Source: Raja brachyura
Lineage: Eukaryota
Direction of reading: 5' to 3'
Assembly: GCA_963514005.1 (NCBI GenBank)
Contig: OY740808.1
Location: 24,428,001 to 24,492,000, forward strand
DNA: 64,000 nt
A program made the translations under genes and the position numbers. The first letter of the stretch is position 1; every line of letters begins with the position of its first letter. Shown one piece after another: positions 1-43,200 of this stretch. The notes under the pieces were generated by a model that did no database searches, had not been told where the DNA came from, and saw only the letters and a list, made by a program, of their open reading frames with translations.

Positions 1-135
1 TTTTCTATTGTACCTTGCCAAATTCATCAGGATGATTCTGTGTGAATTACATATAATTATTCTCAGAACTTAAGCATCAGTGTAACAATGTAGAAACAAG
101 GAAGTACATATGCTGGTTTACACAAAAGGAAGCAC

Positions 136-3653: not shown

Positions 3654-4208
3654 ATGGCTGGAAGTGAGAAGGAACCCACCAATAATATAACAAGTGAAGA
3701 TACAAGTCTAATGTCTGAAGAACCTCAAGAATTAATGAAGGATGTTGAAGAACCTTTGGACGAGGAAAAAATATTGAAACCAGAGGAAACTCAAGTTTCA
3801 ACTCAAGTTTCCTCTGATCCTGAATATGCTGCAGAGAGTGAAAGAATTTCATCTCCAGAAGAGACTGGACAGACTATTAATAATAATGTGAATGAAAATA
3901 TAGACACACCCAAAGAAATTGACATTATTGATCAACATAATGAAATAGTGTCTGAAGATGTAGGCTCGGAAAGTTCTGAACAGCACTTCACTACTCCACC
4001 ACCTGATGTTGATACACAATCGGATGAACATACGGAAAACATACAAGATAATGAACGTGAAGAACAAATTAAAGTTGAAGATCAATTGGATCAGGTTAAA
4101 CCAGAAAACCAAGGTCCACCACCAACCCCAATAACAGATCAGCCTCAGTCTTCCCCAGAAAAGATTCCAGAAACAGAGAGAGATACGAGGTCCCTGGATA
4201 CAGAACAG
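3654..4208 (+). CDS. CFAP251: CFAP251 coding exon 1 (MAGSEKEP...SLDTEQ), acidic low-complexity N-terminus
   Basis: Acceptor ttttgtcag ending 3644, ATG 3654, donor CAG|gtcagt; 555 nt, phase 0; E/D/Q/P/S/T-rich like the WDR66 N-terminus. Confidence 0.8.
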
Positions 4209-16200: not shown

Positions 16201-19200
16201 TTTGCGCCGTGTTGCGCCACTCACCCGACCTCCGCGCGGCCCCTGCTGCCGGTTTGGTTGCGCTTGCCGCATGCAGGCGCATGCTGGTGGGAACGGCCCT
16301 GTACAGGGGATCACCCGACCTCCGCGCGGCCCCCGCTGCCGGTTTGATCGCGTTCATCGCATAGAGTTGCATGCTGGTGGGACAGGCCCTTTAGTCTTGA
16401 AATCCCTTTTAAATTTCTTCCCTCTCATCTTAAACCTGTGCCGCCTATTTTTAGACTCTCCTCCCCTAAGGAAAAGGTACGATTCTCCCAGGCTCATAAT
16501 TTTGTAAACCTCCATAAGATCACCCTCGGCCTCCTACACTCCAATGAAATAAACCCAGCGTATCCAATCTCTCCTTATAATTACAGCCCACTATTCCAGG
16601 CAACACCCTGATGAATCTCTTCTGCATTCTCTCTATTCCTATCACATTTTTCCTGTGAATCTCTTCTGCACTCTGCTCTCTGTTACATTTCGGTATTGAA
16701 TCCATTTTAAATTGGATTAGAATGCGACAGAAAAATGAAATATAATTTGGTCCCTATTTAAAGTCAAGCTTTCTTTCCATTACTTAGAGTTATTTGATCC
16801 TATTTAAAATGCAAGATGTAAATGATCTTTTTACCACAGATTTTATATCTATTCCAATCAATACCAATATACTTACCTAAAATGTTTTTTTTAAACTGGA
16901 TTCTGATATTACAAATTTCATATGGGACTATAAATCACATAGAATTCAAAGAAGACATTTGTGCAAACCCAAAGAATTTGGTGGATTAACACTCCCTAAT
17001 TTTTCATATTATTATGGACAGCAAACGTCAAAAATGTGATTCACCTGTTGGACAACTGCCCAGCGGGTGGATTGGATAGTAATGGAGAGAGAGGATTGCC
17101 CCCCTTTTGATATAGGAACGATCCTTCTCTCACCAACAAAATTGAATAATACAATATGTAGTAAAAATCCAATTATTCATAGTACTATTAGAATTAGGAA
17201 ACAAATAAAATTAACACTTAAATTACAAAATTTATCCCTTCTCATATAGTTAATAATCCGTCATTTAAACCTTCTAGTATTGATAAATCATTTACATATT
17301 GGGAAAGAATAGGAATTGAATTGTTCAGAGACATGTATGAAAATTCAAATTTCTTATCATTCCAACTTAAATACAACTTGAGAAGTAATCAATATTTTAA
17401 ATATTTTCAAATTCGTGATTATTTGAAAAAATATACACAAGAATATCAAAATTTGTCTCCAGACTTATTAGATGAAGCAATGAACGTAAAGGCAGATTCA
17501 ACTAATTTAATATCATATTTGTATAATATTATCCTAAATATAGAAATACCATCATCTGATAGAATTAGAAGATATTGGGAACAAGAACTAGCTATAAAAA
17601 TCTCGAAAGAGAGTTGGGATAAACACTTGCTATATGTGCACAAATGTTTGATCAATGTATTTTAATCCAATTTAAAACTTTACATAGACTATATTATTCA
17701 AAAACTAAAATAAGTACATTTTTTCCAAATGTCTCCCCAATTTGTGATAAATGTCTATCCCAAGAAGCAACCATAGCACATTCCTTTGTTTTTTGCATGA
17801 AAAATCCAAAAATTCTGGAATGAAATCTTTGAAATTTTTACAAAATTATTAAAATAAAATTGAAACCGAATGCAGAATTGATTATTTTTGGAACAATGGA
17901 AGCCAGCTTTGGGCTGACTTCGTTCCAAAAGAGCTTCCTTAATTATGGCTTAATAATGGCAAAAAAACGTATACTTAAATTCTGGAAAAACGCTCCCACA
18001 CCAACGATAAAAATGTGGATTTCAAATATGTCCGAAACGTTACACCTAGAAGATATGAGATTCCTCCTTGCAGGCAAATCAGACCATTTCCAAAAGATTT
18101 GGTCTCCATTTATCGACTTATTACAAGCATAGGGTGCAACACAACTCTCTCTATAAATGGTATCAGGACCTGGTGAGGGGTGTGTAAAGATACGAAGGAA
18201 GTACATCCCTTTTATCTTAGCTTATTTTAATTTCTCATATTTTCTGTCTTCTATTTTTTTTTCTTTCTTTTTCATATTTTCCTTTGTTTTTCTTTTTTAG
18301 TCTTTCTTGTGTCTTACGCTTTTACGGGCTCTTCCAGATCACTCTCTCACGCACTTACTATCCTATCTAACTCTCTCTATTCTTCTTCTTCTTCTTCTTA
18401 AAGTATAAAATAAGAAGTGGTAGAGGAAATGTATTGTGTTATTTTTGGCTTATATCATTGTAATGTACAATACTTCTAGTAAAGAAAATTAAAAACTAAA
18501 ATAAAATAAAATGCAACATGTATTCTGGAATTATCAGGGATGCAAAACCTGCCCGGTGAAGGATTCACTAAAAAGTCTTCCTTCCCAAGTAATAGTTCTG
18601 CTATTTAAAATCCCGAATAAACAACATTCAAAACCTGAAAGTTGATATGAATAAAATGTACTTCATGCCATTAGGAATTAAATTTGGTTGTCATTTTTTG
18701 CTGGTAATTTATGCAAATTTAAAAGTCAATCATATTTATTTTACTATCAACTTTTTCTTAATCTATGTCTGCAATGACTGCCTTTAGAAAGAGAACCAAC
18801 TGGAATTTGCATCACCAATTCTTACAGATGAAGTAAGTACAGATAAAATGTTCAAACATCAAAACTTGAAACAAGCTACGAATGTAAAGAGCAAGTCAAA
18901 AATTAACGTAGACTAGAATAACTAATAACCAATTACTCCGTAAAATTTCTGTTTACATTTTCAAAAATCGCCTGGTTTAAAATGAAGATAAATGAAATTA
19001 AGCTGGAGTTTAGAAGATTTCGGTCAGTGGGCAAAATTAAGGCACATGGTATTGGGGGTAGAATGCTGACATGGATAGAAAATTGGTTGGCATACAGGAA
19101 ACAGAGTAGGGATTAATGGGTCCCTTTCAGAATGGCAGGCAGTGACTAGTGGGGTACCGCAAGGCTTGGTGCTGGGACAAGCCTTACAATATACATCAAT

Positions 19201-22200
19201 GATTTAGATGAAGGGATTCAAAGTAACATTAGCAAATTTGCAGATGACACAAAGCTGGGTGGCAGTGTGAACTGTGAGGAGGATGCTATGAGAATGCAGG
19301 GTGACTTGGGTGAGTGGGCAGATGCATGGCAGATGCAGTTTAATGTGGATAAATATGAGGTTATCCACTTTGGTATCAAAAACAGGAAGGCCGATTACTA
19401 TCTAAATGGTGTCAAGTTGGGAAAAGTGGAAGTGCAATGGGATCTGGGAGTCCTTGTTCATCAGTCAATGAAAGTAAGCATGCAGGTACAGCAGGCAGTG
19501 AAGAAAGTGAATGGCATGTTGGCCTTTATAACAAGATGAGTTGAGTATAGGAGCAAAGAGGTCCTTCTGCAGTTGTACAGGGCCCTAGTGCGACCACACC
19601 TGGAGTATTGTGTGCAGTTTTGGTCCCCTAATTTGAGGAAGGACATTCTTGCTATTGAGGGAGTGCAGCGTAGGTTTACAAGGTTAATTCCTGGGATGGC
19701 GGGATTGTCATATGCTGAGAGAATGGAGCGGCTGGGCTTGTATACTCTGGAGTTTAGAAGGATGAGAGGGGATCTTATTGAAACATATAAGCTTATTAAG
19801 GGTTTGGACACGCTCGAGGCAGGAAACGTGTTCCCGATGTTGGCGGAGTCCAGAACCAGGGGTCACAGTTTAAGAATAAAGGATAAGCCATTTAGAACGG
19901 AGACGAGGAAACGCTTTTTATCACAGAGAGTTGTGAGTGTGGAATTCTCTGCCTCAGAGGGTGGTGGAGGCTGGTTCTCTGGATACTTTGAAGAGAGAGC
20001 TAGTTAGGGCTCTTAAAGATAGCGGAGTCAGGGGATATGGGGAGAAGGCAGGAACAGGGTACTGATTGGGGATGATCAGCCATGGTCAAATTGAATGGCG
20101 GTGCTTGCTCAAAGGGCCCAATGTCCTACTCCTACACCTATTGTCTATTGCAGAAAAGTTGCAGAGGTTAAAAAAAAGCCTTTAGTTTATTGAATAGCAG
20201 AGCAAGCATAAGTTGCTGTGCAGCTCATTCGTGCTTATACTTATATTCTTCTTGAACCTACTCAGGAAATCACAAAAAAAAATTTAAATATGTCTCAGTT
20301 AACTCACTTACAACAACATCTACAGGGTTGAAAGATGGTGTGGCAATGTCAAATGTCAGCAAATGATTCTTGTGTGACTTGGTGGGAACAGGCAGAAATT
20401 TGAGTCTTGCTTCGATCAGTTCCTAATTTCAGCCAAGTTGACAACATTTGACCTTTCCCTGAAGTGGAAAGTCAATGAGACAGGCAGATGGGCAGTCTCC
20501 AACATATCCTGATGGGGGCTGCAGAACCATTATACCACTTGGTGCAAGGCATTCAGCCAAAAGACAAGAGCTATATGTATATAAAACAAACAGAATAACA
20601 TAAGCTACATAAACAACTATTAATCAGTGATATGACCTTTTACAGAGAGTACTATAACCCTTGCTTTTTGAAAATAAATGATGCTGATTCAATTGTTATG
20701 ATTATAAGGATACCAATTTTCTACTTATGTTCAATTGTTAACTTTCTAAACTTTAGCACTGTGACCTTTTCATTCACAGACATTTAACAAAGTTGTGGGA
20801 ATCTACTGTCAATCAGTTTTCCATCTTATTCCTTCACAAGTACTCACTGGCACTTCTGCAGGGAATTTGGTTATCTGGGACACTGTTGGTACAACTCATA
20901 GTCAATTTGATGCAATGAAATTATACAAGAAAAAACCTTTAAAACTCATGAATCTACAGAATGATGGTATTACAGTGGTCGAGGTAATGGACAGGTAAGG
21001 GAGAGGTGGGTTTTCATCAGGGAATCGGTATAGAATTCAGATGTGCATTTAACCTGTATTGTAGTCACTCAAAGTTGAATTAGAATACTGATATTTTCTT
21101 GTTTAAATACGGTTCTCCCCCCCAAAAAAAATTCAGAGAAATCACACATTTCAAAGTTGAACTTTATAATTTTCTATATTTTGTGAGAAATAAGTTATTC
21201 TTGCGAGGACCCTTCCCTCAAACATGGAATTACTTCAATCTTTTTTATCCAAGTAAAAAAAAATCTCAATCAAAGAATGTCGATCAATCCTTTTGGTTAA
21301 TATGCAATTATAAACAGATAATGATATATTTAGAATGTTGATCCGGTGAATCAGAGGATGATATCCTTAAATGTTTATCTTTACAGAGTTCAGACAAAAG
21401 ATGATTATTGTATAGGTATTTCCCAAAAATGATTTTTATACATTTTATACATGTTTATTTAAAAAAAAGTAAATTGTAGCAAAGTCCACAATCCTTCACC
21501 AGATTGTGTTGATGTCTCAATGGATCGGCATTTAGTTCACCAGATATTAATCTGTGCATTACTTTTAACCCACCAGAGCCTCAGTTCATGCACTCCCTTT
21601 AACACACTGGGCTCTATTTCCCATGCCCCACTTTAACAAACTGGGGCCCCATTTCCAGCACTCCTGTGAAACGCACCAGGGCCCCTTTTCTGCACACTCT
21701 TGAAACTAATTGTGACTTTGTTTTCATTGCCCCTTGGAACTGACTAGAGCTCCATATGAAACTCACTTGGTTTTGTTTACTGTGTTGCCTTTAAATTTAC
21801 AATGTTTGTTGGAAAAAAAAATCTACTACTATGAAACACCTAAAAATTAAAAACTAATTAGCAGTGTTTTGGAGTATTAATTTGGAATAGCATCCAATTG
21901 CCTGAAAAACTATTTGTTGCTACTGAGCTATCTGAATAATCTTAATATCTGCGACCATAATTATGCCAGGATTTACAAAATGATTACAAAATATTTTCTT
22001 GGAGATTAGAATAATGGATAGCATAAAGTGCTACCTATGTTATTCCAGCTGACAACTTTAGATGCCATCACTCATTGTGTGCTGAAAATCATTCCCTGTG
22101 GTCTGATGCTGCTTTGAATTGTGTAACCCCTCAGAGCTGAGATTTTATGAAAGCACAAGAAACTGCAGGTGCTGGATCTTTTTTCAGGAATAAGTGAGCT

Positions 22201-25200: not shown

Positions 25201-28200
25201 TATAGGGACTGTTTAATTGCTTCTGTTGGAAAAATAAATGGTAAGGACAGAGAAAGAGAGCGTAAAATGTTATTATCAGGTTCATATGGAGAAAGAAAAC
25301 ATTCACACAGGCTTAGAGACACGAGGAGTTACAGATGTTGGAATCTCGAGCAAACAATAAGTGCTGGAGGAACAGTGGGTTGGGCAACATCTGTGGAGGA
25401 AATGGGCCAATGATGTTTTGGTTCAGGAACTTTCTTCCAACTGATCAATTCTGCAAACTTCAAATTCTGAAGAAGGGCCTCAACCCAAAATATCGTCTTT
25501 GCCATTTGCTCCACGGATGTTGCCTGACCCGCTGAGTTCCGCTTTCTGTTTTATTCTCACAGGCTTGATGAGCTCATAGGCCTAATCTTGTGAGGCAGAC
25601 CTATTGTCCATATGCGACTGGATTTACTTGGGTCTTGTCATGGATGTCCAAGTTTCCAATGCTAATGTAGACCTAAGGTAGCTACAAAAGGTCCTTCACA
25701 GCACTGGTGGATTCCTTGGAGTTCAGCCTGTGCAGCACAAACCTCTGCAAGTTTCCCAACAATCAGACTGGGAAACCTTGCTGTCCCTGTGCCAGTTTAA
25801 ACCGTGTAAGCACAGTGGTCCCCATTCAAATCATTGGAAGAAAATGGTTGCTTAGAAAGTTGTAAACAGCTATACTTTAAATATTTACCAGAGTTTTAAA
25901 TGTTAAATACTAACATCTTTGATAACCAATACGTGCAGGAGGCTGGGCTTAGGGACTCATCAGCTGTCAAAACAATTCTTAGTACATGCAACTGTCTGCA
26001 TTGAGATAGCTCTTATGTTATGCTGAGCCATGCCAGAGTGCTGGGAGCTTGGCTCTTAACAACGGATCATGCCAGGGAACGTGCTGGAGCAAAGAGCACG
26101 ATACCGGGCAAGTGGCTGGTAATTTCAGGAAAATGGCAGTCATGGTGTCATACCCTTCTCTGACTTGCTTATGTGTGCCTGTCTACATACCTCTTGAAAT
26201 GAGTAATTGTATCTGATTCCACTACCTCCTTTGGCATTGTTGCAGATAACAACCATGTTCTGTATAAAAACAAAACAAACAACCAAAGTGACGCAGCTGA
26301 TAGAGCTGCTGCCTCATAGAGAGACCAAAATTTGATCTTGACCTCATGAACTGTCTGTGTGGAGTTTGCACATTCGCCCTATGACCGCGTGTGTTTCCTC
26401 CAGGTGCACCCACATCCCAAAGACGTGCGGGTTTGTAGGATAATTGGCATCGGTAAATTGCCCCCGAGGAAGTAAATGTGAAAGTGAAGTGGGATAACCT
26501 AGAACTAGCGTAAATGGGTGTACAATGGTCAGCCTGGACTCGCTGGGCGGCAGGGCCTGTTTCCATGCTAATCTGTAAGTTTAATTCCAAATCTCCCACT
26601 TCTCAATGTAAAACTATGCCCTCTTACTTTTGATACCTTATACCATAAGAAACAAAATTGACCATCTAACCTATCTATGCACCTTATCAACTTCTATCAT
26701 GTCCTTCCTCAGCTTCCATTGCTCCAGGGAAGCTATTTACCTTTTATAAAAGCAAAATAAGTACTAAAAATGTTTTTTTTTGTCCATTTATTCCATGTAG
26801 AAACTTTGTTGTGTCTACAGTTGATGCTACAGTGGCTCATGTAACTGGAGACGGGTGCAAGCTTGAAATGTTATTGCAGGAGCACAGTGCAGCATTGCAT
26901 GCCATAGCATGTCATCCCTCTCTGCCTCTCATTTGTATGGGAAGCTATTGCGGACTTCTGAAAGTCTGGGACTATGAGAACAAGGAACCTGTTTGCAGCA
27001 GGCTGTTTGGAACTGGGAACTTTATTCATTGTGTGACCTATAATAAAGCAGGTATGAGCAATAAATTTAACGAGTAGATATTTTAGTTTTTAGTATTTCA
27101 AGCATTCACGTAGATACTCTCTATGAGGCAGTATCAAGGTCTTCGATGTCGGGTATTGGGTGTAAAAATAATGCTTCTTCAAAAGGTCCCAAACAAGAAC
27201 CCTTGGTACTCTAATTTCATTTTTTTAATGTCTCACAACTCCTATCTGCTAGTCGCTTTCAGTGAGACTTCTTATTGAGTGCTAATTATCTTGAATTTAA
27301 TGTTGTGATTCATGTTTGTTGGTTAGTGGATAGATCGTGACTCTTAGTGACTGGATTCATCAGCCAGAGTTAGATTTGCATCTTGGTCCTAGATGTTAAA
27401 TATAATAAAAAATAAAAAGAAGATGTTACAGAACAATGGATTATTCAATCCCTTGAATCATTGTCCTGGAGTTTGCTGACAAATACAGTAGGTTCTGTGG
27501 GTTTCAGCTGATGGACACAATCTTGCTGAGATGCCTCAGACCACTCAAACCACTGGTATTTTAATTTTTTGATTGTTTGATATATCAAAAATTGATTTAA
27601 ATAGGTTTGCAGGGTTGGAGAGTAGAGTAAAATAGAAGATAAATCATTTTTATTAAATACAATTTACGTATTGAATTGAGAATGATTTTCCCAAATGCCA
27701 AAGCTTGTAAGGGAACTTTAGGGGCAGTGTGTCATGGGAGGCCCCATTGCCTCTCAGGCCATGCTGCTGGCAACAAGGACACTTCTGGCTACAAGTTAGG
27801 CCCCCTACATCTGCCACAGGTAAGTATGGGCATGTGTCATGTACGTGTTTAATAGTAAGATTAAACGAGAACTTACCTGTTCAAAGTTTGATCTTTATTT
27901 TATGAGGAGTTACGATGAGGGACGTGAAGAAGCCTGGCGCATGATCGGCATACTTCAAAGCAGCTGCATGAAAAACACAGAACCAATAGCCGGAGTAAGA
28001 TAGTAAGGCTCACATAGACTAGAACTACCAGATGATCATTTATATTATGAGGGTTGGAAGCGGAGGGCACGTAATCCCTCATCGTAACTCCTCATAAAAT
28101 AAAGATTAAACTTCGAACAGGTAAATCTTGTTTAATCTTACAATTTTACTTCGGAGTCACGCAAGTGACTACGTGAAGATTTTAAAGCTCAGTGTTTTTT

Positions 28201-31200
28201 ATGTCGTAGATTCATTCCATATGACACTCTGTTTCAGTCAACACAGTAGTGAGTAAATAATATATTTTTAAAACATTGTTTCAGTTTATGTAATAAGTCT
28301 TTTAATCATAAAAGAAAAAAAAATAATCACCCCTCTATCCCAGGGGAAAGTTTACAACAAAAGTGATAATGATATAAAGTGATGACATAAATCAATAATA
28401 TAAAACAAAGCAAACATTCAAAGAGAACCCAACACTGCGTGTCCAAACCCTGGCACCGTGAGAACAGGTTTATCGTAGAACTTTGAAAAAACTACTTCTT
28501 TACACCACCCTGCGGCGTCTAAAAATTTGGTCGAGTGGCACGTCCTGTACCTTTGCCGCGGACGTAGCTGCTGCCCTGGTGGAGTGAGATTTAAACACAT
28601 CAGTGTCTACTCCTGCTAAATCCAAAACCTGTTTTAACCATCTAGAAATGGTTTGAACTGAAACTTTTAATGCATTTTTTTGTGCGTAATCAGTAACGCT
28701 GTCTCACCACCCCGGAGACTCTTGGTTACTTCAATATATTGAGTCAAATGCATAACTACACACAATGTTTGATCGACAGTGTATGCTTTAAACATTACCT
28801 TGGTTCCAGTTTTCCCTGGTCTGCTTTGTTTGATTAGATCATAAACATAAAAAACAATGTTATCTGAAGCCACATGCATACAATCTAAATGTAACATTTG
28901 CAATGTTTGAACTCTTTGTGCTGACACTAATGCCTTTAGCATTACTACTTTAAATGTTAACTTCTGCAAAGACAAATTGACGTAATTGGAGCCCATTGCC
29001 TAAGCAAAGTAAGAACAATGCTAATATCCCAAATTGCTGTTTATCTGGGTTTGGGAGGATTTTTATTAAAAATTCCTTTCATAAACCGGGATATTAATGG
29101 ATGAGACCCGATTGATTCCCGGTCAGAAATTTGTCCTAAATAGGACGACAAAGCACTACGAGCACTATTAATGGCACTATAACTTAAGTGCTGATCAAAA
29201 TGTAACCCAGCAGGGAACTCCAATACATTTGATATGTTCGCAGTATGATAATATATTTTCTACAGAAGACTTCCCATTTCTTTATATGCAACATATTTTG
29301 TTTTTTAGTGTTATTTCTCCAAGCTGCAGCTATAACATCCATGGACCTATCCGACAGTCCAAGCCCTTGCAATGGTCTGGTCAGAACCTGCAGATTAACA
29401 AATTCATATGATCATGCAATGGATGAATTTATTTTGTTACTGGTTGTACCAACAAATCATTGCAACTAGGAATCGTCATAAAAGGTTCAATAATCATTCG
29501 AAGCATCAATGGGAACCATGACTGTGTAGGCCAATTTGGAACCACCAAAACGCCCTTGGCAGTGTCTTGCGCTATTTTCATGAGACATTGCCCAATCAGG
29601 CAGAATGGGGGAAAAGTATAAAAGAAAATATTCCCCCAATGTAACAAGAGTGCATCCACCGCTACTGCTCCTGGGTCGGGTTCCCATGAGACGTATTTGG
29701 GCAATTGGTGATTTAATCTAGATGCAAACAGATCAATGTCCGGTAATCCATACCGACTGACAATATTTTTGAAAACTTGTGGATTTAACATCCATCTTGT
29801 ACTGTCTTTGAATTTTCGTGATCTGTTGTCTGCCACAATATTGTCTCTCCCTGGGAGATAAATAGCTAAAAGCCAAATATTCTTACCAATACACCAATGC
29901 CACATCTGGTTAACCAGATAATCACATGATAATGATCTTACTCCACCCATGTGATTGATATATGCCACAGCTGTGGTATTGTCTACTTCTAATTGGACAT
30001 GCAAATCCTTCATAGTAGAACAATAAGCTTTCAATCCATAAAATACTCCAAATAACTCCAAATAATTAATACCATATGCTTGGAGAAATATGTCCTCTTG
30101 GACAGTCCATCTGCCACCTCAGCTGGTGTCATTGTCCTTAGCCCCCCCCCCCCATCCGAGAGCACTTACATCAGTTTGCAAAACCACTGCTGGTTGCTGA
30201 ACAAATATTTTTTTAGCAGCTTGTGGAACATTCTTAATCTACTACTGTAATTCGGATAAAGCTTCCGTTGTTAATTGCATGGCCTATCAAAATGGCCTGC
30301 ACGTTCTTTTAGTGCTTGTGTTTTTGCCCTTTGAAGGTTTTGATAATGCATTGGACCAACTCAACTGCAGGAAACGCTGCTACTAATTACCAATAGCCTT
30401 AGCTACTTCTCGGATGGAGGGATAATGTTTGTCAACAAGGCAACGACACACATTTCTAATATTGACAACTTTCTCTATTGGTAAAGTTACTGACATAGTA
30501 ACTGAATTAATCACAAACCCCAAATAGTCAATTGTTTGGGATGGCTGTAACTTAGATTTTGTTGGATGGATCAGAAATCCTAGCCTTTCAATCAGGCTTA
30601 TAGTTGCTGAAACTGATTTTTCAGCTGATTCCTGCTTAGCATTGACAATTAAAATGTCATCAAGATAAGCCATGACAATGTGTTGTTGTGCCCTTAGCAG
30701 TGCAAGTACTGGTTTCAACAATTTTGTGAACAGCCTAGAAGCTGAGCTTACCCATTAGGTAATGCCTTATGTTGCCACAGCTGACCCATCCAATTAAACT
30801 TCAAATACCTGTGAAAATGATGATGAATTGGTACTGAATAGTACGCATCTTTCAATTCTATAGTAGCCATGTAACAACCTGTTGATAACAACTGCCTTGC
30901 GGTGTTGAAGGTATCAATTTTGAAATGCTTATACTGGACAAATGTATTAACGTGTGTGAGGTCCAGAATGACTCTACCACCCCCATCTTTCTTTGCCTGG
31001 GGAAAATATTTGACACAATTTGTTGTGGATTATTAACCGTATTTTCAATTACTCCTTTTTCAAATAAAATGTTTACCTCTTTTTTATCTGAGATTTTTCA
31101 GGTGCAGAAAACACCAAAATACGATTAGGTTTATTCTGTACAGGTGGATCAATTTCTTCTACAAATTCTATTGTAGATCCTGACACAGTATCTATCATAA

Positions 31201-34200
31201 AACAATTGTAATCTACCACCAATCGGAGGTTCACCAAAAGATTCCTCTGTGATAGAATGACGTTTTTGTACGTCCAAATCTCCTTTTCCCAACATACGGG
31301 TTTGCATTAGGCTGTGATGGGTAATAATACCTCCTCACCATACTCCTGCCTCTGCTTCATAATTAAATCCCCTTCTCATTGAACCACACCTTTTTTGACC
31401 AAATATGAAAGGTTTCATAAGGCTTTGTCTGATAGTCTTTGCCTCTTCACCAATTTCTTTGATTTGTTTAGGCACGTTTTCTTCGAATAAATACCCAGGA
31501 GTTTGAATATTGCTTGATCTGCACAGACCTGTAAATCTAGGGTGCAGTATGGGCCGAATGGTGATTATTCTCATACAATTAACTCAAAGTATGAGTTACA
31601 AAACAATGCCAACATATCTTTTTGAACTTTGGTCATTGTACATCCTTCCACTTGCTCCCCAAAAGCAGTGATGCCACCCGCAATTTTAAGCTTGAATTCT
31701 TTGGAATCGTATTTCCTGCATTATTGAAGACATGGGTGCCCAAATAGTCGGATTCACCGTTGGCACCCTTAGTGAAGCACAATTCACAGGTGTTTCATAT
31801 AATTCTGCTGTTTCAACCATAACAGCCTCCTGAAGCTGGTGAGAAACCAATTAATGTTGGCCCCCAAGGTTATCTTCCGTGGCCTCACTGCTTCCTTCAG
31901 GTATAGCACTTTGTGCCTCATCAAGTATACCTGGATTAATATTCTTGTGCTGTGGTGGGTACTCAGACTTTCTCAGACTTTCTTTACTTTTCTCCCCACT
32001 GGAGATTCTTCCGCGGCTTCTGGTTTGTGGAGCGACTAAAGACTCACTAACGGGTAATTCAATGGCCACCGGTATCGGAACCGTCTCCGCACTAATCTGC
32101 CGTCACGATCGCTGTGCTTCTACCCGGGACGCACGTTTAACCCGCACCAAATTTTTCCGGAGTTTTTTCCCTTTTTTCTTTCAAACTCTTCCTGGCTTTG
32201 CACGCCAGCGTCACGGAGTTTGAAAATGCCCTGAAGGTAATTTAATCCACTTACCTGCGGGCCTGTTCCTTACCGCTGGTGGAGCTGTGCTCTGCAGCTC
32301 TTTCCCTACCGACAGCGTCGATGTAATGGCCGATCATGCGCCAGGCGGGGCTTCTTCACGTAGTCACTCATGCAACTCCGAAGTAAAATTGTCATATAAA
32401 CTGTTGTTGCATTTGATATGCTTTATAGGCGTATTAAATAGGCTAGACCACTAGGGGCGCTGCATTGAAAGCGCCTCTGCCTACAGCCTGTCCGTTTTTT
32501 CCCCTTTTTTAAATTTTAGTTTGTCTAAACTGTTTTGTTTTGGGTACACAAAATGCTGGAGAAACTCAGCGGGTGCAGCAGCATCTATGGAGCGAAGGAG
32601 ATAGGCAACGTTTCGGGCCGAAATCCTTCTTCAGACAGAGGCGCTTTCAATGCAGCGCCCCTAGTGGTCTAGCCTATTGTCTGAAGAAGGGTTTCGGCCT
32701 GAAACGTTGCCTAGAGTCTGAAGAAGGGTTTCGGCCCGAAACGTTGCCTATCCCCTTCGCTCCATAGATGCTGCTGCACCCGCTGAGTTTCTCCAGCATT
32801 TTGTGTACCCTCGATTTTCCAGCAAATGTTTCGTTTTCGGGTTACTTTAGCTTTTCTATGTGTGGGGAGGGGGGCAGGGTAAGGGGGAAACTGTTTCCCA
32901 GTTGCTTCCTGGCGGGGACGCGACTATTTCTTAGAGCCGCGTCCTCACCCCCTCCTCGCGGCCTACCACCTGGATCGGAGCGGCCTTTCCTGCCGGGGAC
33001 CGGGAACCGGACCAGAGTTGCAACCGGATCAGAGTCGCAGCACTGAATTCACCGCGGAGCGGGCGATATCTACCTGGATCGCCGTTTGGAGCTCCGGAGC
33101 GTTGGGCCTGCAGCTTCGACATCTAGGAGCTGTGGGTCGAGGAGCTCCCAACGCGGGCGGTGCTGACCGACATCGCGGAGTCCTGGGGCCCTTTGCCGAG
33201 GGCCGCCAGTGTTGAGTCTCCGCCCGGCGCGGCCCGGGGACGTCGGGAGCTGCGGACTCTGGTGGGAAGCGGCCGTTTTGGAGGTCCAAATCGCTGAGGT
33301 TGGCCTCCAGTCCCGACGTCGGAGAGCCAACATCCCGGCTAGCAGGCTTGAGTGGCGGGCTGCCCATAGCGGCGATTGCGGAGGGCTCCAGAGGCCCCGA
33401 CCATGGGGGAACATCAGAGGAAGAGACTGATTTTGGTGCCTTCCCTCACAGTGGGAAATTTTTGATTCTGCTGTGTGGGGATGTTTTATGTTTAAATCTA
33501 TCGTGTGTTGTGTTCTTTATTTTAGTGTATGGCTGTATGGTGATCACATCTCACTGTGCCATCTGGCACATGTGACAAATAAATGTATCTTGTATCTTGT
33601 AAATGCAACACCACACATACAATAAATTATCAGTTATTTTAGATAAACCAGACCATGATCGTGCAAGTCATAGTGTGTACCATTGTAGCGCCAAGTCCAT
33701 TGTAGCTTGGTGCGGAAGTAGGGTTATGCAGGGTGGTTCAAGAGCCTCTTGATTCATGGGAAGAAGCTGTTTCTGAACGTGAAGGTAATGGTTCTCAGGC
33801 TCCTGTACCTTCTTCCTGATGGCAGCAGTGAGATAGGAGCATGGGTGGTGTGGGCTTTTGATGATATTACCTTCCTTCTTGTGATAGTGCTTTCTGTAGA
33901 TCCTTTCAATGGTGGGGAGGCTATTCCATATGATGGACCAGGTAAAGTCCAGTATGTTCTTGAGCATATAGGCCTAATTACAAGTTTAGACTGATACCAG
34001 TATGATTTATTTCATATCAATGGAGCAGTCAATCTTGGACACTCTAATTACTGAACTGAGTGAGATACAATTGGTCAATGAGCTCTCCATCATACACATG
34101 TAGAGGTTCCATGGCGTATTTGATGACGTGCCAAATTTCCTCAAATTTCTGAGGAACTAGAGGCATTCCTGAGCTTTATTTGTATTTGCATCAATGTACT

Positions 34201-37200
34201 GGGCCCAGGTGACTGTGAGGACCAAACTTGTTCCAGCAAGATTTGTCTGTAGGTGTTGCATATAACCTATGTCAATTGTAAATGGATAATGGGTTTACAC
34301 TATATTTCCTGTTTCACACATCTCAAAACTAACATCATATTTGAATGAGAAATAAATTTTGTTAAATAATTTCATTCCAAACGTGTTTCATTGGCAAAAT
34401 ACAATTTCCTTACTTCCATAGGTTCACTGTTGGGAGTTGGACTTACTGATGGATGTGTTTACATCCTTGATGCGCTTTCTTTGAACAATGAGCGCTCCGA
34501 ACCTTTCCAATATGCCAAAGATGCTATTACTGACATTGCCTTCTCACATGACTCAAGATACCTGGCAACAGTTGTGAGTATTGAAAATATTTTTTAAAGG
34601 AATTGAGGCAGTGGATGCAGAAATAATCAACATTTTTTTGACCATCCAAATATAAAATAGGCTATAGTTTTTTAGAAATAATTTTAAAATATATAAATTT
34701 ATTTGCTCTTTCGAACCACTAAATCTTAATAAAGAGACATGCAGATATAATAATTTCAAGCCCTTCTGTAAACATGTTCTAAGATGTGAATTATTCTAGC
34801 ATTTCCACTTGCTTGTGTGAACATTATGTACCTGCAAGAGTGGGCTCAATTAAGATGTGACAAATTTAGAATAGTTCATGTAAATGTACACAAGAGGAAA
34901 GGTTCGATTTAATAAACTATTGAGGTTACTAGCATTTTTGCAATTGTAACTCACCTTTCAAGAGAGTGTCTTGCATCAACTCAGTATCTGCCATGTTGAC
35001 ATACCACTATCTGACATACTGGAAATTCACATAATCTTTCTAGTAATTAAAATATTTGAGAAGACCAATCTAATTTACAAATTGAAAAGTTTCAGTGAGA
35101 CACCACAAGTTGTGCAGAGCATGGGAGCTGTAAAGTTATAGTTGTTGCACATTCTACAAGATGGAAGCAAGATAATCGGTTGTAAAAATGGTGGTTTTAT
35201 ATGGTCAACCATTTGAATAAAAAGCTTTATTGGATGATTATTGGTAGTTTCTTCTGAATACAGTATTAACATTTAATTTCCGACTTCCAATATCGTATTG
35301 CTATATTCGAAAATGTTCTGGATAAATTATGTAATAACTTGTATTGTCCAACAACCAGTTTATTCCAGATTAATAGTAAACCACAGATGATTCAATGGCT
35401 CTTGCATTAATCTGTTCTTTGTGTTGCAGGATAGTAAAACCACAGTGACAGTGTTTCATTTTCGCAATAATTCTTGGATGTATTTAGGAAGGCAAAATGC
35501 ACACTTTAAACCAATTAAAACTCTCATGTTCGGGATATATTTGGATGATAACAAACCCAGACTATTGTCTCTTGGAGAGGACAGGGTACTGGTAAGTGAA
35601 TGTTTAATGCTCCATCTTGGGTATCTTCTTTCATTACTAAAAATCATTATTTTTTAAATATTGCCCAGAGTAGCAAAAGGGAATATTAAATGTGCAGTGA
35701 AATGGTCAAATATGATTTAGTGGTGAGCAATTGCCTATTATCAAGTTATAAACCAAGTAAGAAATATACAATTGCTAGCTTCATAAATCTGTTAGTCACT
35801 AATTTGGTGAAATTAGCTTTTGTGCTATTTAGAAGGTATAAAAATAACAGGAAGTAAACGAGAAATCCGTGTTTAATCTTTTCAAAAATCGCTTTGATGT
35901 TGATATATTTCTAATATTGGTTTATTTTGTAGTGGATACCCATCTGGATCCCACTAACTTAAGTTAAATATTTTGGAGTTCACCTCATTCTGATTTCTTC
36001 CTAAAGTTTCATAATTAAATATCATGGATCATTTGTAGATATTTGAATCATTGCATATTCAGTATGCAGATTTTTGATTATACTGGGCAAAATGCAGGCA
36101 AATGACACCAACCTATAATGCCAATAATGCCAACTTGGTCGGCATGGACAGGGTGGGCTGAAGGGCCTATTTCAATGCTGTATTGACTGTGACTTGTTTT
36201 GTATTCTTTACTTGATAGTACAATGTATGTGTTGTTATTATTTCATTTCATCCATTTCTTGTTTTATATTTGATTCAATGCTACTTTATTTGTCACGTAC
36301 AGTGGTACAGTGAAATTCATTTTTGTATACAGTTCAGTACAAGTATCAGTATTGATAAGCACTTGGATATATCTTAGATAAGCATCTCAGATACAGTACA
36401 AGTGAATGGCAGTAGTACGTTGAGACAGTATACAGAGTCATCAGTTTGCTGCCATTTTCAAGTCCCAGTTGTTGTAAGTGCAGGGTTCTTGACCTGACCA
36501 TGAAGGTCCATTACCCTGGTGGCGTTGTTGGGGTGGGCCTTACCAAGTGTGGCTGTGGTGTCCTCTTTTACTGCAATTTTAATCAATGACTATAATTTTT
36601 TTCTAGTTTTGAAAGATATAAGAAAATAATAGCTGTACACCTCATTTAACAAATGTTTTTTTTAATTCCTCAGGTAGAGTATGATCTGGAAAATAGTACT
36701 GAGGTTGATTTGCGGATCTCGAGTAGTGAGAGAATAGAACAAAGTGCTATACCCATGTGCATGGCCTGGTATCCACCGATCACTAAAGAGAGTTTCATTA
36801 TCACAGCCAATGACCAGTATAAACTAAAACTCTACAACGCCACAACCAACATGTGCAGGTTTGTGAAACCCATTCATTCATACATAGCATAATGACTTTG
36901 CTTCAAACACAAATCTTTTCAAGGCACTTACCTGACAACTGGATCATGCTGATGGTTCTATTGTAAGCTGGCCTCAGTCTAAAGGGACCAGATCCGAAAT
37001 GGCGTCTGTCCATTCCCTCCACAATTGAAGCTTGACTGGCTGTGTTATTCGAACAGTTTTGTGTCTTACAAAAGATAGATATATTTTGACTCCTAAATAT
37101 TTTGAATTTTCTCTACCATAGTGGTCATTGAGAACATTCAAATCTGAGATCGATGTTTTGAAATAAGAAACATGTAGAAACATAAGAAAATGTAGGGATT

Positions 37201-40200
37201 GGGTAGAAAAGTGGATTTGAGATCTAAGACAACTCATTGTTATTTTGAAAGACAGGGAAAGCTCAAGAGGAACTGTAACCTACTGCTACGGTTTCTTATG
37301 TTAATTTTATATCTGTTGCTTAGTTCTATGGATAACCTTTACAGAGTCAATGTACATTCATGTATCAATTCTGAGGAATTGATCTCCTTTGCCCTTGCAT
37401 GATTTGAAGAAAGCAACTGTTGTCTTAATTTCATTGTGATTTGTTTATTAATCCAATCCAATCCACTCGTGCTTATTTGGTATACTGTTGATTAGAAATT
37501 GATGCAATTTTGTAATTTTAACACCTGATGTGTGTTGATATTGTGCAATTCTCTTTACCCTGATGTGTTTAAATTGTTTCTTTCTCCACAGAAAGACAGT
37601 ATTGGGTCCGGTCTATGAATCTCCTTTAAAAAAAATTAAGATCCTCCCTTTCTCAAGCACCAATGAACCTAAAGTTGGTTATTTAGCCTATATCACAGAT
37701 AACAAGGTATACATTCATCTATTAAAAAAATTTGTAGCTGTGATACAATTTTCAGTTTTCACGTTGAGAGAATTTTTTTGTAATATTCTTCAGGATGTAT
37801 TTGAAAGTTTCCGAAAATACTTCTTCAATTTGCAGACGCCACTAAATCTCATGACCGAAAGTAAAGGACAAACGAGACCAAGCTTTGCCTCCTTTATTCC
37901 AGAACACCCTTTTAACATAAAATATCCTCAGAACTCCTCGTGTGCAGATAAGGCCATTTAGTGTGTCTGCCCTCGGAGTTGTTATCCCGCTCTCTTTTCT
38001 CCGCCATCACCTCCGGTTCTGGCTCATCCCAGTGGTAACAAGCTGTATGAAAAACCACGTGGGCATGAAGTCGCCACAGTTCCCCCCTTAGCCACCGAGT
38101 CACACAAGGTGGCGACCAAAGACTGCTGGCTTTGTCCTGACCCGTACCGATCTGGCGGATTGATTTTACGGCCTGATCTCGTTTGGTACTGCAGTGTGGG
38201 AGGTCTTTGGCAGGAAGTGTTTGTGTCCTGTGACTTCGCCCGCTCATTGAGTGAGGTTGTTGGTTGGTTCTCGACATGTGCTGGCTTTAACCGGTCGACG
38301 GATACAGTGTCTGTTTTTCCGTTCCGATTGATTATGAAACTCTTAGGTAGGCGTTGGATGACTTGTGTGCTTGCAGAAGAGGTCGGTGGATGGTGTCATG
38401 TCGGATCAAAACATGTGTGCAGCTTTGTAGCAACGTTACAAAATTGTGAGATTTTAAAAATCAAGTCTGCAATTTATCCCATCAGATAAAGCATAAAAAG
38501 AAGTTTAATTTGACACCTAATTCACTTTCATATCTTCAGTATTAAAAAAGTTATGGCCATTTTCATACTCTTAAATTAGCATCTTGTTCCCCATTGCCTT
38601 TCCATTGACATAAGTCAAAAGCTGTGATCTGGGACAGTCAAAAGCCCATAACATTCTTAAAAATTAATAGAACTCAATGAAATTTTCAGTTTTTATAGAT
38701 TGAAGCATTCTGAAACAAATATGAAACAATCTTACTTGGATGACCTGAAATTAAAGCATATAATTAGTTAGTTACCTAATTGGAGCTAATTCAATTACTA
38801 GATCTAAACATCTATCCATTTCTTAAGAAATGATAAACATTTTTAAATTGCCTAAGTATCCAAATAACATTCACACAATAATCCACAATATAAAATGATT
38901 TTTAAATCTCATTTTCATGAACTTATAGGCCAAATGGAAGGAATTTAGTGTTTAATTCCTGTAAATTAATGGCCATTTAAATCAACTTGCGAGTGGGTTT
39001 TAGTGGAACGCGGTGGATTGGAACGTTGCGGTTTGCGGTGAATTTAACCCCCATTCAGCAGGAAAAATACAGCCGGTTTGTATATTTTTTTTGTCCCCTT
39101 TTCGCATTATGAAAATTTGATTAAAGGCTTGCTAAGAAGCACGTTTTTATGTAAAAATAAACTTTTATCGCCTACGTTAGGTCCGTTACGCAGTCGGCGT
39201 TCAGGGCTTTAGAAGATGATTTTTAAACTACTCTAGCTAATAAATGATCTATCGTAGTTTAAAAATACTTCATGAATGAAATGTCGGAGCGATTTCTCTT
39301 TAGCAATGAAATCGCCTGAGATTGATCGATTTGGACTGTCTAGGGAAAAATGGCATTTTAAACCGCCCCCCTCTGAAAGCACCAAAGTCACGCACATGGG
39401 GAGTGGCAGAACTGCAGCGCTGCTAAAAGTAGGTATTGTAACATACCTAAGCTTTGGAGATCAGCAAGCACGTAGACCATTGCAGGTGTTTGCCGCGTCG
39501 GTGTCGATCTGAGTAGCTGCATAGTTCGCTGTAATCGATCGACATACCTGTTTGGGTCATAGGAGGTACACAAAAGGCTGGAGAAACTCAGCAGGTGCAG
39601 CAGCATCTAAGGAGCGAAGGAGATAGGCAACGTTTCAGGCCGAAACCCTTCTTCAGACTGATATATCTGTCTGTGGGAATTGGTTCATCTAATTCGCCGG
39701 GCAGCTTCAGAATTATGCCGTAAATGAACATCCTAGGTCTGCTTTCACCGCCGTACTTTTTTTCTGAATTATATTCAATGCGGTCATAATATTAGTATCT
39801 AGACGGGAACAGCCAACAATTTCTGCTGTACATATTTTGATGTGAATCTAAATGAAAACATGAAGGGAAATACACCTGCGAATGAAAAATAGTTTTCATC
39901 AAAATAATTTAAATGAATCATTATATATGTGAATCAATTGATTGACCAGGATATATTTGTATAACATGATAGATATGTAATTTAATAATCTTGCTATTTG
40001 TAAAAGGCAATGGATATGTCTACTAAGATTTTCTGGTTGAAGTCATGGATAAAAAGCTTAAATCCTGACTTACCTTGGTCCCGAAGAGATCCCGTAGTTT
40101 TTTTAAGCACCAACTTTTTATGCACTGACTTTTTAGTGCATCAACCTTTAAGCACTGACATTTTACTCCCTAAATGTTTTATGAACTGCCTGACCCTGGT

Positions 40201-43200
40201 CCCGAAGGGATTCAAACATTTATTACGCTATTTGATTGTGATCTGCTACAAAAACTATAGCAATAGAAATTTGGGGTAAATTCTTTTTGGAGAATGATTG
40301 AAATAAGTTTTATTTTCAGAACCCAAACTCTTATAGAAGAGTCATGTACTAGTGTTGTGCTTTGCTTATTAGTACTGTAATAAAAGCATTTATTTATACC
40401 TTATAAAATCTAAAATTGTACTTTCTTGCAATGTGTTGTCCAGGTGGGTTTACAAACCCTGCCGTTGGATGGAAATCCCCATAAATCCTGTGCACTCGTC
40501 TGCCATGGAAGTGTAGTGACTAATATTGCCTGCTCACATGATGGTCGTTATATTTTTACAGCAGGAGGAGATGATTGTACTGTACATATGTGGAAAGTTG
40601 ACCTGGAGTAAGTAAATGTATTTATTCTTTCTCGAAAAAATTGTCCTCAACAAAAGGACTTTACTAGAATCTCTCAAATTTGCTATGTGTGGACAGACAC
40701 AAATTGCTGGAGTAACTCAGCGGGTCAGGGAACATTCCTGGAGAAGATGGATAGGTGACGCTTCAGAGTAAAGGTTCCAACCAGAAATGTGACCTATGGA
40801 TTCTGCCTGACCCGTTGAATTACTCCAGCATTTTGTGCCTATCTTTGGTATACACCAGCATCTGCAGTTCCTTTTTATTGTTATGTAGGGAGTGGATCCG
40901 AAAGTGAGATAGTATAGAACTAGTGTAAATGGGCAATTGATGGTCAGCATGGACTCTGTGAGTAGGAGGCTTGTTTCCAAGCTATATCTTTAAATCAATG
41001 CTTTCAAACAAGTACAGATATGACAGTTTTAAGGCACTAAGGGAGTTTGACATCAACATCATGGAGATAAGCTTGCTAAGTGTGCATTGGAATAGTCAAA
41101 ATAAAAGGCAAGACAGACTAGGGTGAAGGTTTTAGGTGTAGATGAGCAAGAATGGACGGGCATTGTGAAGATGGCTCTCGTTAGTGATAATGTGATAATC
41201 AATGTAAAAACTTAGCAGCTCAAATGTAAAATCAAGGTAGCAAACAAACTGGATTTGTTTCAGATAGTTGCAGAAAGAAAAGGGAATAAGTGGAAAGGGG
41301 TGCAGTTTCTGATGGGAATTCATTACTAAATATCAGGCAAACAGCATAATAATTTGGTCAAGAGAGAAATGGTGAAAAAAGGATGATACAAGTGCCAAAA
41401 TTCTTGTTTATACAATCTTGATTAGAAATTATAAATTGTTACATTGGTCTATGACTTAAACTAGAGATACATACAATTGTCTTTATTTACATTGATAGAG
41501 AATTATATTTTTCCAGACTTTGCTGCCAGAATAATGCTTAATATGCCCGATTTTATTTTTTTTTTAATTATCCAGCAATTTATGACAACAATTATAGTCT
41601 GTGAAGAGTGAATTGCCAGAAGTGTTGGATGATATGCTGTGAGCCACTAAAACATAATTCATAATCTCACTGTTGTATTAAATTGTCACATATTATTTAC
41701 TAATATAAATATTGACTTTAAATGATAGGATTGCTACTAAACAATTATTGGACCTTATTTAAAAAGAGGAATTTAATGGCAAAAAAACAATCTGATTCTG
41801 AAAGCTTAAATGGTGGAGTTTCAATCCTATAAATAGTAAATTGTTCAGAGAATTATAAAGTTATAATTGAAAAGATTTTTTAATTTGTACAGTTCCTTTG
41901 CCCTCTCAATCCAGTCTTTCTGCAAGATCAATAAGTTTCATTGGTCACCTTGATTCTCTCAGCACTTGCTGCTGATTTAGTCTGACAGCTGTATCCTTCA
42001 GGATTTGACCAGCTACATCATCTGTGGATTTTCAGAACCACTCTCAGAGATGATCATCGATGTTTCCCATCCAGAACATATTCTGTGCTATTCTCAGTGC
42101 TCCTATCAAGCATTATTCCACAAGAGCACTAATTCACCACTTAGTGGAGTGGTAACAAACAGATTTCCTTCTCCATCTTTTGGCTAAAGTATTGAGGTTT
42201 TACAGGATTCCGAGCAACACTTTCTGACCATGTGGCATTGTGGCACCTCGCATATATTGTCTGTCCTAGTAATGACATTGCTAGTAATGATGGAGAAATT
42301 CGGCTGATTTTCTATTTTTGGGATCTACGACCATAAACCGCAAGGTTTATTTAATTCTCCCATCAATCACTCGGTTTCTATTCTGATTAGCATAGAATAA
42401 CCTATGTTAGGTTGTGCACAAATATAGGAAAAGTGATGTAGGACCAACAGTACCATCCACATTGCCATGCTTTGGTAATAACTAAACATAGCACAACAAT
42501 ATGAGTACATTGTCCAATGCATAACTCAATGCGTGTGAAATTTCTTTCACACGTAAAGGAGCAAAAGATTATCAGAAATATCATTTTTGCATCAGTAATT
42601 ATGTTTGCAGTTGACTCAATCTGTAAGTACAATTGAACTTTTACATTATGTCTCATCAGAAGAATAAAGGTTAAGTAAGTATAACTGTTATTTTGTGGCA
42701 TTAAAGGGCTCATGAAGCAGTAATTGCACTTGGAGGCGAGGATTTGATACCATTTTATGGTTTATTGGAAGGTGGAAGAGATGGTGAATTATTTAAGGTA
42801 ATAACCTTTCAGGATTTTTCTTGATTAATTTGTTGAATTTTGTAAATGATAATGAAAGTTACAGGAACAATTATGTAATCTGCCTGTCGCTTTCATTGTT
42901 CTATAGATTGGCGTTTGTAAGAATTATTCATTTTAACATGATAATCTTGAAATCCTTTAATACATGCTGTGCTCTGAAAAGTAATTAAAAAAATTATCCT
43001 TTGCACAAATATTCACATAGACACATACACACTAATATACAAATGTTTACATGCAAGCACGCAATTATAAAAATCAATATTTATCCTATTTTGGTTCTGT
43101 TATGTATATCTATCAAGGTTTGTGAATGTAATTCTATACTGTTGTATCCTTGAGATATATAGTGCTCACATGATTCATTACATGTATTTTAAGCATTATT

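What the first reader, a model, noticed from the sequence alone, without database searches (positions are those of the whole stretch)
32681..32752. Tandem pair of minimal hammerhead-ribozyme motifs on the sense strand of a CFAP251 intron
Seen: two copies 37 nt apart of CUGAAGA-A-GGGU(UUCG)GCC(C/U)-GAAACGUU-GCCUA. Knowledge: this is the type I hammerhead core order (CUGANGA, helix II, GAAA, UH) with a palindromic AACGUU in place of helix III; such minimal hammerheads are described in Penelope-like elements and retrozymes, where they act as dimers, and an extra A after A9 is tolerated in some natural hammerheads. Inference: the adjacent copies could fold as a double hammerhead and cut the pre-mRNA. 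Caveat: helix I is weak (2 bp, or ~5 bp with a bulge in copy 2).
Basis: partly seen in the sequence, partly recalled or inferred. Interest (0 to 1): 0.75.

Follow-up and report, generated by a model that had tools for sequence, protein, structure and literature searches.

The report
Twice-copied Penelope hammerhead in an intron
Two tiny self-cutting-RNA motifs do sit 37 bases apart in a CFAP251 intron, but they are the front end of a very abundant Penelope-type jumping gene, likely copied twice during one insertion, and are predicted not to fold into a working ribozyme here.

Summary
The two motifs are real and lie on the sense strand of a CFAP251 intron (27052-34421). They are not a host element. 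Both are the 5' end of the terminal repeat (pLTR) of an RT + GIY-YIG Penelope-like element, whose minimal hammerheads are published (PMC4209133). The genome holds 49,363 exact 30-nt motifs and 936 close tandem matches.

One composite insertion inside another repeat holds all three, between target-site duplications.

The double-hammerhead fold is predicted 24 kcal/mol above the ensemble, and 69 with the antisense copy. Helix I is 2 bp and copy 1 lacks the G10.1-C11.1 pair, so cutting of the pre-mRNA is unlikely.

The tandem most likely arose when the reverse transcriptase ran off the capped RNA 5' end, re-primed about 35 nt in and copied again. Across 92 tandem loci, 36 of 80 clean junctions fall at nt 33-40 and only 4 at the cut site.

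The scan has found this family before on other DNA, including this genome. Verdict: a new member of a known kind. The junction pattern is the only mild novelty.

The parts
32679..32715 (+). Upstream unit: pLTR nt 1-35 plus linker GA (likely cap-derived G plus start-site A of the next unit). Holds min-HHR copy 1 (C3 at 32681, helix II 32689-32700 with G10.1.U11.1, predicted cut 32708|32709).
   Evidence: cap-G reading inferred
32716..32810 (+). Short pLTR copy, nt 1-95. Holds min-HHR copy 2 (C3 at 32718, intact G10.1-C11.1, U17, predicted cut 32745|32746).
   Evidence: 97-99% identical to dispersed genomic copies; found at the 3' end of RT-EN ORFs in L009 and L024
32811..32824 (+). First 14 nt of the roughly 36-nt PLE tail
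   Evidence: same sequence continues in L011, L022 and in full-length elements and in loose ends of contigs from other runs
32542..32636 (-). Antisense, tail-less pLTR copy (head-to-head partner); third min-HHR, with helix II broken at 10.3; pairs with 32716-32810 in a transcript
32633..32678 (-). Inverted 46-nt copy of flanking DNA 32437-32482, joining the two pLTR heads; likely a template jump onto the target DNA
   Evidence: 98% complementary; mechanism inferred
32531..32541 (+). Left target-site duplication (11 bp, perhaps up to about 14)
   Evidence: compared with empty copies of the host repeat L032-L042
32827..32837 (+). Right target-site duplication (one mismatch to the left copy)
32446..33603 (+). 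Unrelated interspersed repeat (about 870 nt without the insertion) into which the composite inserted
27052..34421 (+). CFAP251 intron that holds the locus; the pair lies about 1.7 kb upstream of the 3' splice site

Best explanation
The pair is the 5' end of a Penelope-like retrotransposon's terminal repeat, present twice in one composite insertion, likely because the element's reverse transcriptase copied the front of its RNA twice, and it is predicted to be catalytically silent at this locus. Shown: the unit is the pLTR of an element with a 1203-codon RT + GIY-YIG frame. The insertion reads TSD, antisense pLTR without tail, inverted flank copy, pLTR nt 1-35, pLTR nt 1-109, TSD. Inferred: transcription starts at an initiator-like (T/C)CAGT just ahead of the hammerhead. 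[quoted passage not shown] On running off the capped end, one cDNA re-primed near nt 35 and copied to the end again; the other jumped onto flanking DNA; the two ends were then joined. The hammerhead belongs to the retroelement's own cycle, probably as a weak, protein-assisted dimer.
For: Identity: pLTR follows RT-EN ORFs; full-length copies with pLTR-tail-ORF-pLTR; RVT_1 and GIY-YIG hits. Abundance: 180,563 exact 14-mers; 49,363 exact 30-mers; 574 exact tandem junctions; 936 pairs at period 13-43; 507 at period 8-16. Single event: of 48 tandem clusters retaining 27-40 nt, 32 have an exact TSD of 7 bp or more around the whole composite (control 9 of 300), and 2 show the rest of an older copy downstream. 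Of the 25 with an inverted partner, 19 carry the tail on exactly one end. Capped start: where 0-2 parental bases precede the repeat, the next base is G in 37 of 59. Different junctions in 9 of 11 arrays of three or more units. Silence: gaps of 24 and 69 kcal/mol, rank 31 of 39 among intact tandem pairs. Internal priming at two tail sites, protein-dependent HHR cleavage and HHR-independent insertion are shown for an Anolis PLE (PMC11167929).
Against: No enzyme or RNA experiment was possible. 12 of 39 linkers equal the bases in front of the first unit, which DNA-level duplication would also give, and some arrays have identical units (L104, L120). Pfam scores are below the curated cut-offs. Nearest-neighbour energies omit tertiary contacts, protein help and co-transcriptional order: the 46-bp flank hairpin could form first and trap the antisense copy in a loop. 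All 15 long-ORF loci examined belong to the sister subfamily (92-94% identical in the ORF), not to this one.
Confidence: 0.8

Rival explanations
1. The pair folds as an intramolecular double hammerhead and cuts the CFAP251 pre-mRNA to a degree that matters.
For: Both cores are complete and on the sense strand. The fold is nested and can be drawn. Dimers and trimers of a Schistosoma min-HHR cleave weakly in vitro (PMC4209133). Subfamily differences keep helix II and the first helix I pair paired.
Against: Helix I is 2 bp at both sites; copy 1 has G.U at 10.1-11.1; the fold is worth -2.7 kcal/mol against an ensemble of -26.9; with the antisense copy the core of copy 2 has unpaired probability 0.0. 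8 of 9 predicted Xenopus dimers showed no cleavage (bioRxiv 10.64898/2026.07.22.740005). The insertion is young and sits inside another repeat.
Confidence: 0.05
2. A single sense pLTR inserted, and its first 37 nt were duplicated later at the DNA level by slippage or unequal exchange.
For: Some arrays in the genome have identical units (L104, L120). 12 of 39 linkers match the upstream flank.
Against: Here the linker (GA) differs from the bases before copy 1 (TT), and the duplicated unit starts exactly at the RNA 5' end. 27 of 39 linkers differ from the flank. Successive junctions in one array often differ.
Confidence: 0.09
3. A new pLTR copy inserted into or next to an older one (nested insertion), leaving a stub of the older copy upstream.
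For: PLE endonuclease cuts its own pLTR in vitro (PMC11167929). 2 of 48 clusters show a downstream remainder.
Against: No remainder of a pLTR follows 32824; the host repeat resumes, with one TSD around the whole composite.
Confidence: 0.03
4. The dimer is a copy of a non-LTR retrozyme with a 37-nt unit, spread through a circular RNA.
For: It is a tandem repeat with a hammerhead in two consecutive units, close to the working definition in bioRxiv 10.64898/2026.07.22.740005, which derives retrozymes from pLTRs.
Against: Junctions differ from locus to locus and within arrays, so no fixed unit is being propagated. The last unit is a normal pLTR with tail. Reported units are 51-972 bp (same preprint) or 150-450 bp with canonical hammerheads (PMC7229834).
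Confidence: 0.03

Closest known systems
Minimal hammerheads (min-HHR) in pLTRs of metazoan Penelope-like elements (Cervera and De la Pena 2014, PMC4209133)
   Same: Type I core without helix III, palindromic 15.2-16.2, extra base after A9, G10.1-C11.1 (copy 2), location in a pLTR, mass dispersal as truncated copies, nearby copies on opposite strands.
   Different: Helix I is 2 bp (as in D. virilis, not 4-5 bp), helix II is 4 bp, and this subfamily has U17. Exact copies number 49,363 against about 4,000 and 9,000 descriptor hits reported for coelacanth and Xenopus (different methods). Two motifs 37 nt apart are not described in the main-text parts I read.
EN+ Penelope-like elements of the Neptune (or Nematis) type (Craig et al. 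2021, PMC8557442; Adineta elements, PMC3846280)
   Same: One ORF with RT then GIY-YIG and a CX2-5CxxC linker; partial tandems; inverted copy at the 5' end; 30-40 nt tail on one end; TSD.
   Different: The locus holds only pLTR fragments. The extra upstream unit is 3'-truncated (it keeps the RNA 5' end), the reverse of the usual 5'-truncated partial tandem. Clade not tested by tree.
Poseidon element of Anolis, PAc (Frangieh et al. 2024, PMC11167929)
   Same: Internal reverse-transcription starts at the two ends of the tail; both strands cut and extended; HHR near the start of the transcript.
   Different: In PAc the ORF starts inside the HHR; here the first ATG is about 165 nt downstream. Repeated copying of the 5' end is not reported in the parts I read.
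R2 5' junctions with template jumps, untemplated bases and short repeats (PMC3774820, PMC2718515)
   Same: Run-off at the RNA 5' end, extra bases, re-priming by microhomology; a figure legend lists junctions with short repeated stretches.
   Different: R2 repeats are of 28S target-derived sequence and use an HDV-like ribozyme; here the repeated unit is the hammerhead itself, with a preferred landing zone at nt 27-40.
Non-LTR retrozymes (PMC7229834; bioRxiv 10.64898/2026.07.22.740005)
   Same: Tandem hammerheads derived from PLE pLTRs; the 2020 paper also mentions axolotl PLEs with minimal HHR copies in tandem (its Figure S7C, which I could not see).
   Different: The unit is 37 nt with no fixed junction and a minimal rather than canonical hammerhead; no evidence for a circular RNA.

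Membership tests
PLE minimal hammerhead (min-HHR) | Core CUGANGA ... GAAA ... UH in type I order, no helix III | tested here: met
PLE minimal hammerhead (min-HHR) | Extra base between 9 and 10.1; palindromic 15.2-16.2 | tested here: met
   A and CG in both copies; A in 0.92 of 95 sampled copies
PLE minimal hammerhead (min-HHR) | G10.1-C11.1 pair | tested here: inconclusive
   met in copy 2; G.U in copy 1, likely CpG decay. Family: GC 71, GT 15 of 95
PLE minimal hammerhead (min-HHR) | Short helix I (4-5 bp typical, 2 bp in D. virilis) | tested here: inconclusive
   2 bp only; pairs beyond the second are not kept in the family (2.3-1.3 paired in 18% of 95)
PLE minimal hammerhead (min-HHR) | Structure supported by covariation | tested here: inconclusive
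   only one-sided compatible changes (U-A to U.G at 10.4-11.4 and 2.1-1.1); no two-sided change; shuffles equal the observed values
PLE minimal hammerhead (min-HHR) | Lies in a PLE pLTR | tested here: met
PLE minimal hammerhead (min-HHR) | Self-cleavage as a dimer | not testable with these tools
   energy model predicts the fold is disfavoured
EN+ PLE, Neptune type | Single ORF, RT followed by GIY-YIG | tested here: met
   1203-codon frame in the sister subfamily; RVT_1 E 5e-4 and GIY-YIG E 2e-3, both under cut-off; 1291 homologues at E up to 1e-30 among 7995 candidates scored
EN+ PLE, Neptune type | CX2-5CxxC linker between RT and EN | tested here: met
   C-X4-C-X2-C motif; shared with Nematis according to PMC8557442
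EN+ PLE, Neptune type | pLTRs, inverted 5' copy, 30-40 nt tail on one end, TSD | tested here: met
EN+ PLE, Neptune type | RT phylogeny with named Neptune members | not tested
   no named reference sequences were in hand
Non-LTR retrozyme | Fixed tandem unit (51-972 bp reported) propagated as a family | tested here: not met
   unit 37 nt; junctions vary between and within loci
Non-LTR retrozyme | Expressed as self-cleaved linear and circular RNA | not testable with these tools
   no raw RNA reads were offered

The most novel reading that the evidence does not exclude
The Penelope reverse transcriptase, sister of telomerase, adds repeats: on reaching the capped 5' end of its RNA it realigns at a preferred single-stranded zone just 3' of the hammerhead (nt 27-40) and copies the end again, several times in one insertion. 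This has written over a thousand short tandems into this genome, hundreds of them double to quadruple minimal hammerheads. They would be a genomic record of telomerase-like repeat addition by a retrotransposon and the seeds from which non-LTR retrozymes arise.
Probability: 0.3. Interest if true: 0.6.

Novelty: new member of a known kind. Interest (0 to 1): 0.25.

Why it matters
For CFAP251 it probably does not matter: the locus is one of hundreds of similar by-products. For PLE biology, the family's insertions give a large natural data set on an unsolved transposition cycle. They show a capped start just ahead of the hammerhead, two internal priming sites, head-to-head joining, and re-priming near nt 33-40 on RNA that still spans the cut site. 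If the re-priming is realignment on the same RNA, it links PLE enzymes to telomerase repeat addition and gives a route from pLTR to retrozyme that can be tested in the existing in vitro PLE system.

Tried and rejected
Rfam: no match at gathering in the window and no hammerhead at E up to 10 in 32400-32900; the miRNA hits there only reflect the inverted repeats.

Free folding of the pair, or of each copy, never gives the hammerhead and is no more stable than shuffles (z -1.0 to +0.7).

RNA evidence: no RNA holder listed. Four runs held as contigs (X6, X8, X10 and X1, the last only guessed to be RNA) contain the family in bulk, but no listed piece spans the locus, so presence in relatives, expression and RNA ends stay open.

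Junctions at the cut site, as expected from jumps onto cleaved 5' fragments: only 4 of 80 (1 of 63 by a simpler rule), so rejected as the main route.

Pure microhomology: the longest match to the upstream bases of subfamily A lies at nt 18-21, where 0 of 80 clean junctions fall, so rejected as the sole cause.

A paper search for GUU cleavage rates gave nothing usable; that U17 cleaves more slowly than C17 is recalled only and carries little weight. No published description of this family in cartilaginous fish came up (two of three supplement files of PMC4209133 searched). The supplement of PMC7229834 could not be read and may show closely spaced tandem min-HHRs.

Full report
OBSERVATION. Two copies of a 37-nt unit lie at 32672-32745, 92% identical. 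Each reads CUGAAGA, an extra A, a 4-bp helix II with a UUCG loop, GAAA, CG, UU. The predicted cuts are 32708|32709 and 32745|32746. The motif matches four times in the window against none in 100 shuffles. Three + strand exons match CFAP251 chains in the PDB in order. The splice sites put the pair in a 7.4-kb intron (27052-34421), about 1.7 kb before the acceptor. Rfam does not detect the motif.

WHAT IT BELONGS TO. Copy 2 heads a 95-nt repeat (32716-32810) with about ten relatives in the window, on both strands, and copies 97-99% identical across the genome. In many of the 29 other loci fetched it follows a polypyrimidine tract and the end of an RT + GIY-YIG frame. A protein search returned copies with frames of about 1200 codons. 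Among the 15 such loci fetched, the full-length ones read: hammerhead pLTR, tail of about 36 nt, ATG about 165 nt from the start, ORF, 3' UTR, pLTR again. The protein has weak RVT_1 and GIY-YIG hits, both under cut-off, and a C-X4-C-X2-C linker. PMC8557442 (passages) gives that linker for Neptune and Nematis. These 15 loci belong to a sister subfamily, 92-94% identical in the ORF to the subfamily of this locus. The genome has 180,563 exact 14-mers and 49,363 exact 30-mers of the motif. 39 hammerhead-bearing hits in 170 kb sampled at arbitrary positions suggest roughly 600,000 copies.

ANATOMY OF THE LOCUS. The composite sits inside an unrelated repeat, whose empty copies define the site. In order: TSD 32531-32541; antisense pLTR without tail, 32542-32636; an inverted 46-nt copy of the flank, 32633-32678; pLTR nt 1-35 plus GA; pLTR nt 1-95 plus 14 nt of tail, to 32824; TSD 32827-32837 with one mismatch. 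An inverted copy and a one-sided tail are standard PLE features (PMC8557442 and PMC3846280, passages). PMC11167929 (parts 1-2 of 4) shows that a PLE enzyme cuts and extends both strands and starts internally at the two ends of the tail.

IS THE TANDEM UNUSUAL? No. There are 574 exact junctions of this type, 936 matches at period 13-43, 322 at 44-73 with some double counts and 507 at period 8-16. I examined 92 loci: all rows on contigs 1 and 2 except three (two near-identical copies of L171 and one double-period row). They gave 106 distinct junctions; 26 with linkers over 6 nt were set aside. Of the other 80, 10 fall at nt 13-26, 17 at 27-32, 36 at 33-40, 9 at 41-50 and 8 at 51-70 (p about 1e-11 against uniform, bin chosen after looking). 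Only 4 fall on the cut site at nt 30, so most templates still spanned it. Of 48 clusters retaining 27-40 nt, 32 have an exact TSD of at least 7 bp around the whole composite (control 9 of 300), and 2 have the rest of an older copy downstream. Of the 25 with an inverted partner, 19 carry the tail on one end only. In 9 of 11 arrays of three or more units the junctions differ; L058, L065, L130, L134 and L141 are clear cases, while L111 and L120 may differ only by point changes. Against this reading, 12 of 39 linkers equal the upstream flank, and some arrays are uniform.

THE 5' END. Among 90 young copies in all loci fetched (a set enriched for tandems), most keep 0-4 parental bases ahead of the repeat. 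Where 0-2 are kept, the next base is G in 37 of 59. That fits copying of a cap at a (T/C)CAGT start; the initiator consensus and cap copying are recalled knowledge. The GA before copy 2 fits the same pattern. A transcript starting there has only two or three bases before the core, so helix I cannot exceed about 2 bp.

CAN IT CUT? In the double fold the shared helix III is 4 bp and each helix I is 2 bp, because helix I partners are exchanged between copies. The fold is worth -2.7 kcal/mol against an ensemble of -26.9 for 32670-32760, a gap of 24. With the antisense copy the gap is 69 and the core of copy 2 is fully paired; the region folds as a -250 kcal/mol hairpin. Among 39 tandem pairs with intact cores in the fetched DNA the median gap is 18, and this pair ranks 31st. 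Copy 1 has G.U in place of G10.1-C11.1, a pair that PMC4209133 (parts 1-2 of 4) calls highly conserved. That paper found no cleavage for a monomer and low cleavage for dimers. PMC11167929 found cleavage only with protein, and no need for it in insertion. The 2026 preprint (parts 1-3 of 5) found 8 of 9 predicted dimers inactive. Caveats: the energy model omits tertiary contacts, proteins and folding order.

FAMILY-LEVEL STRUCTURE. Of 134 copies found through the pLTR's 3' part in 450 kb, 95 had a recognisable 5' part (at least 22 of 37 bases, which favours conservation). Large two-way splits occur in loop II, at 11.4, 17, 1.1 and downstream, all compatible with the fold. Core positions vary less, mainly at CpG sites and by 5' truncation. 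23 of 95 cores are intact. No two-sided covariation was seen. This is weak support for a selected ribozyme in the master elements, and none for this copy.

MECHANISM. Shown: identity, anatomy, TSD, abundance and junction statistics. Inferred: capped start, two-strand internal priming, run-off, re-priming near nt 35, the jump onto flanking DNA, joining. Why nt 27-40 is preferred is open. Candidates are realignment on the same RNA (nt 33-44 is predicted single-stranded in subfamily A, a post hoc fit), end-to-end jumps onto short paused transcripts, or a jump across helix I in a dimer. Template jumps and untemplated bases at 5' junctions are known for R2 (PMC3774820, passages and Discussion part 1; PMC2718515, passages), so the process is not unique. 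Searches returned no title or abstract describing repeated copying of a PLE 5' end; the library lacks most subscription papers. PMC7229834 (passages) mentions axolotl PLEs with minimal hammerheads in tandem, in a supplement I could not read.

VERDICT. A new member of a known kind. Earlier notes of this scan report the same family on other DNA and in this genome. None came up for this place or for re-priming. Interest 0.25. The repeat-addition reading has probability 0.3 and would merit 0.6. That the host is a cartilaginous fish is my recollection of the repeat and the wording of the earlier notes, not a result of my calls.

Noticed in passing
window 32446-33603: Uncharacterised interspersed repeat of about 870 nt with a sharp 5' end, a predicted 5' hairpin and a short tandem 3' tail; 1238 first-look candidates in the genome, and ten of eleven copies fetched align at 78-87% over most of it. 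Class not determined.
   Followed up: partly
window 2043-2131, 10631-10719, 12484-12573, 15189-15280, 25466-25538, 39565-39659, 40697-40879, 52878-53038: Further pLTR copies of the same family on both strands, 70-95% identical; those near 40.7 kb and 52.9 kb look like decayed inverted pairs.
   Followed up: partly
L193-L198, L203 (for example L195:3042-7122): Many near-identical full-length copies with open 1203-1204 codon frames, longer than most homologues listed (about 660-1100 aa) and with a proline-rich stretch before the RT; the subfamily looks recently active.
   Followed up: partly
L045, L053, L109; rows: Very short repeats of the first 6-16 bases of the element in front of otherwise normal copies, inside the TSD; 507 exact cases at period 8-16.
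   Followed up: partly
L120, L111, L073:about 3300-4800: Minisatellites grown from pLTR pieces: at least 16 units of 24 nt, many units of 34 nt, and an array of 66-67 nt units from pLTR nt 23-90.
   Followed up: no
L195:3042-3176: In the predicted fold of the subfamily A 5' RNA the hammerhead core pairs with the tail, which would hold the RNA 5' end next to the second priming site and keep the ribozyme off.
   Followed up: no
window 125-794, 19032-20148, 59644-60771: Another dispersed repeat in three copies, 74-83% identical; not examined.
   Followed up: no
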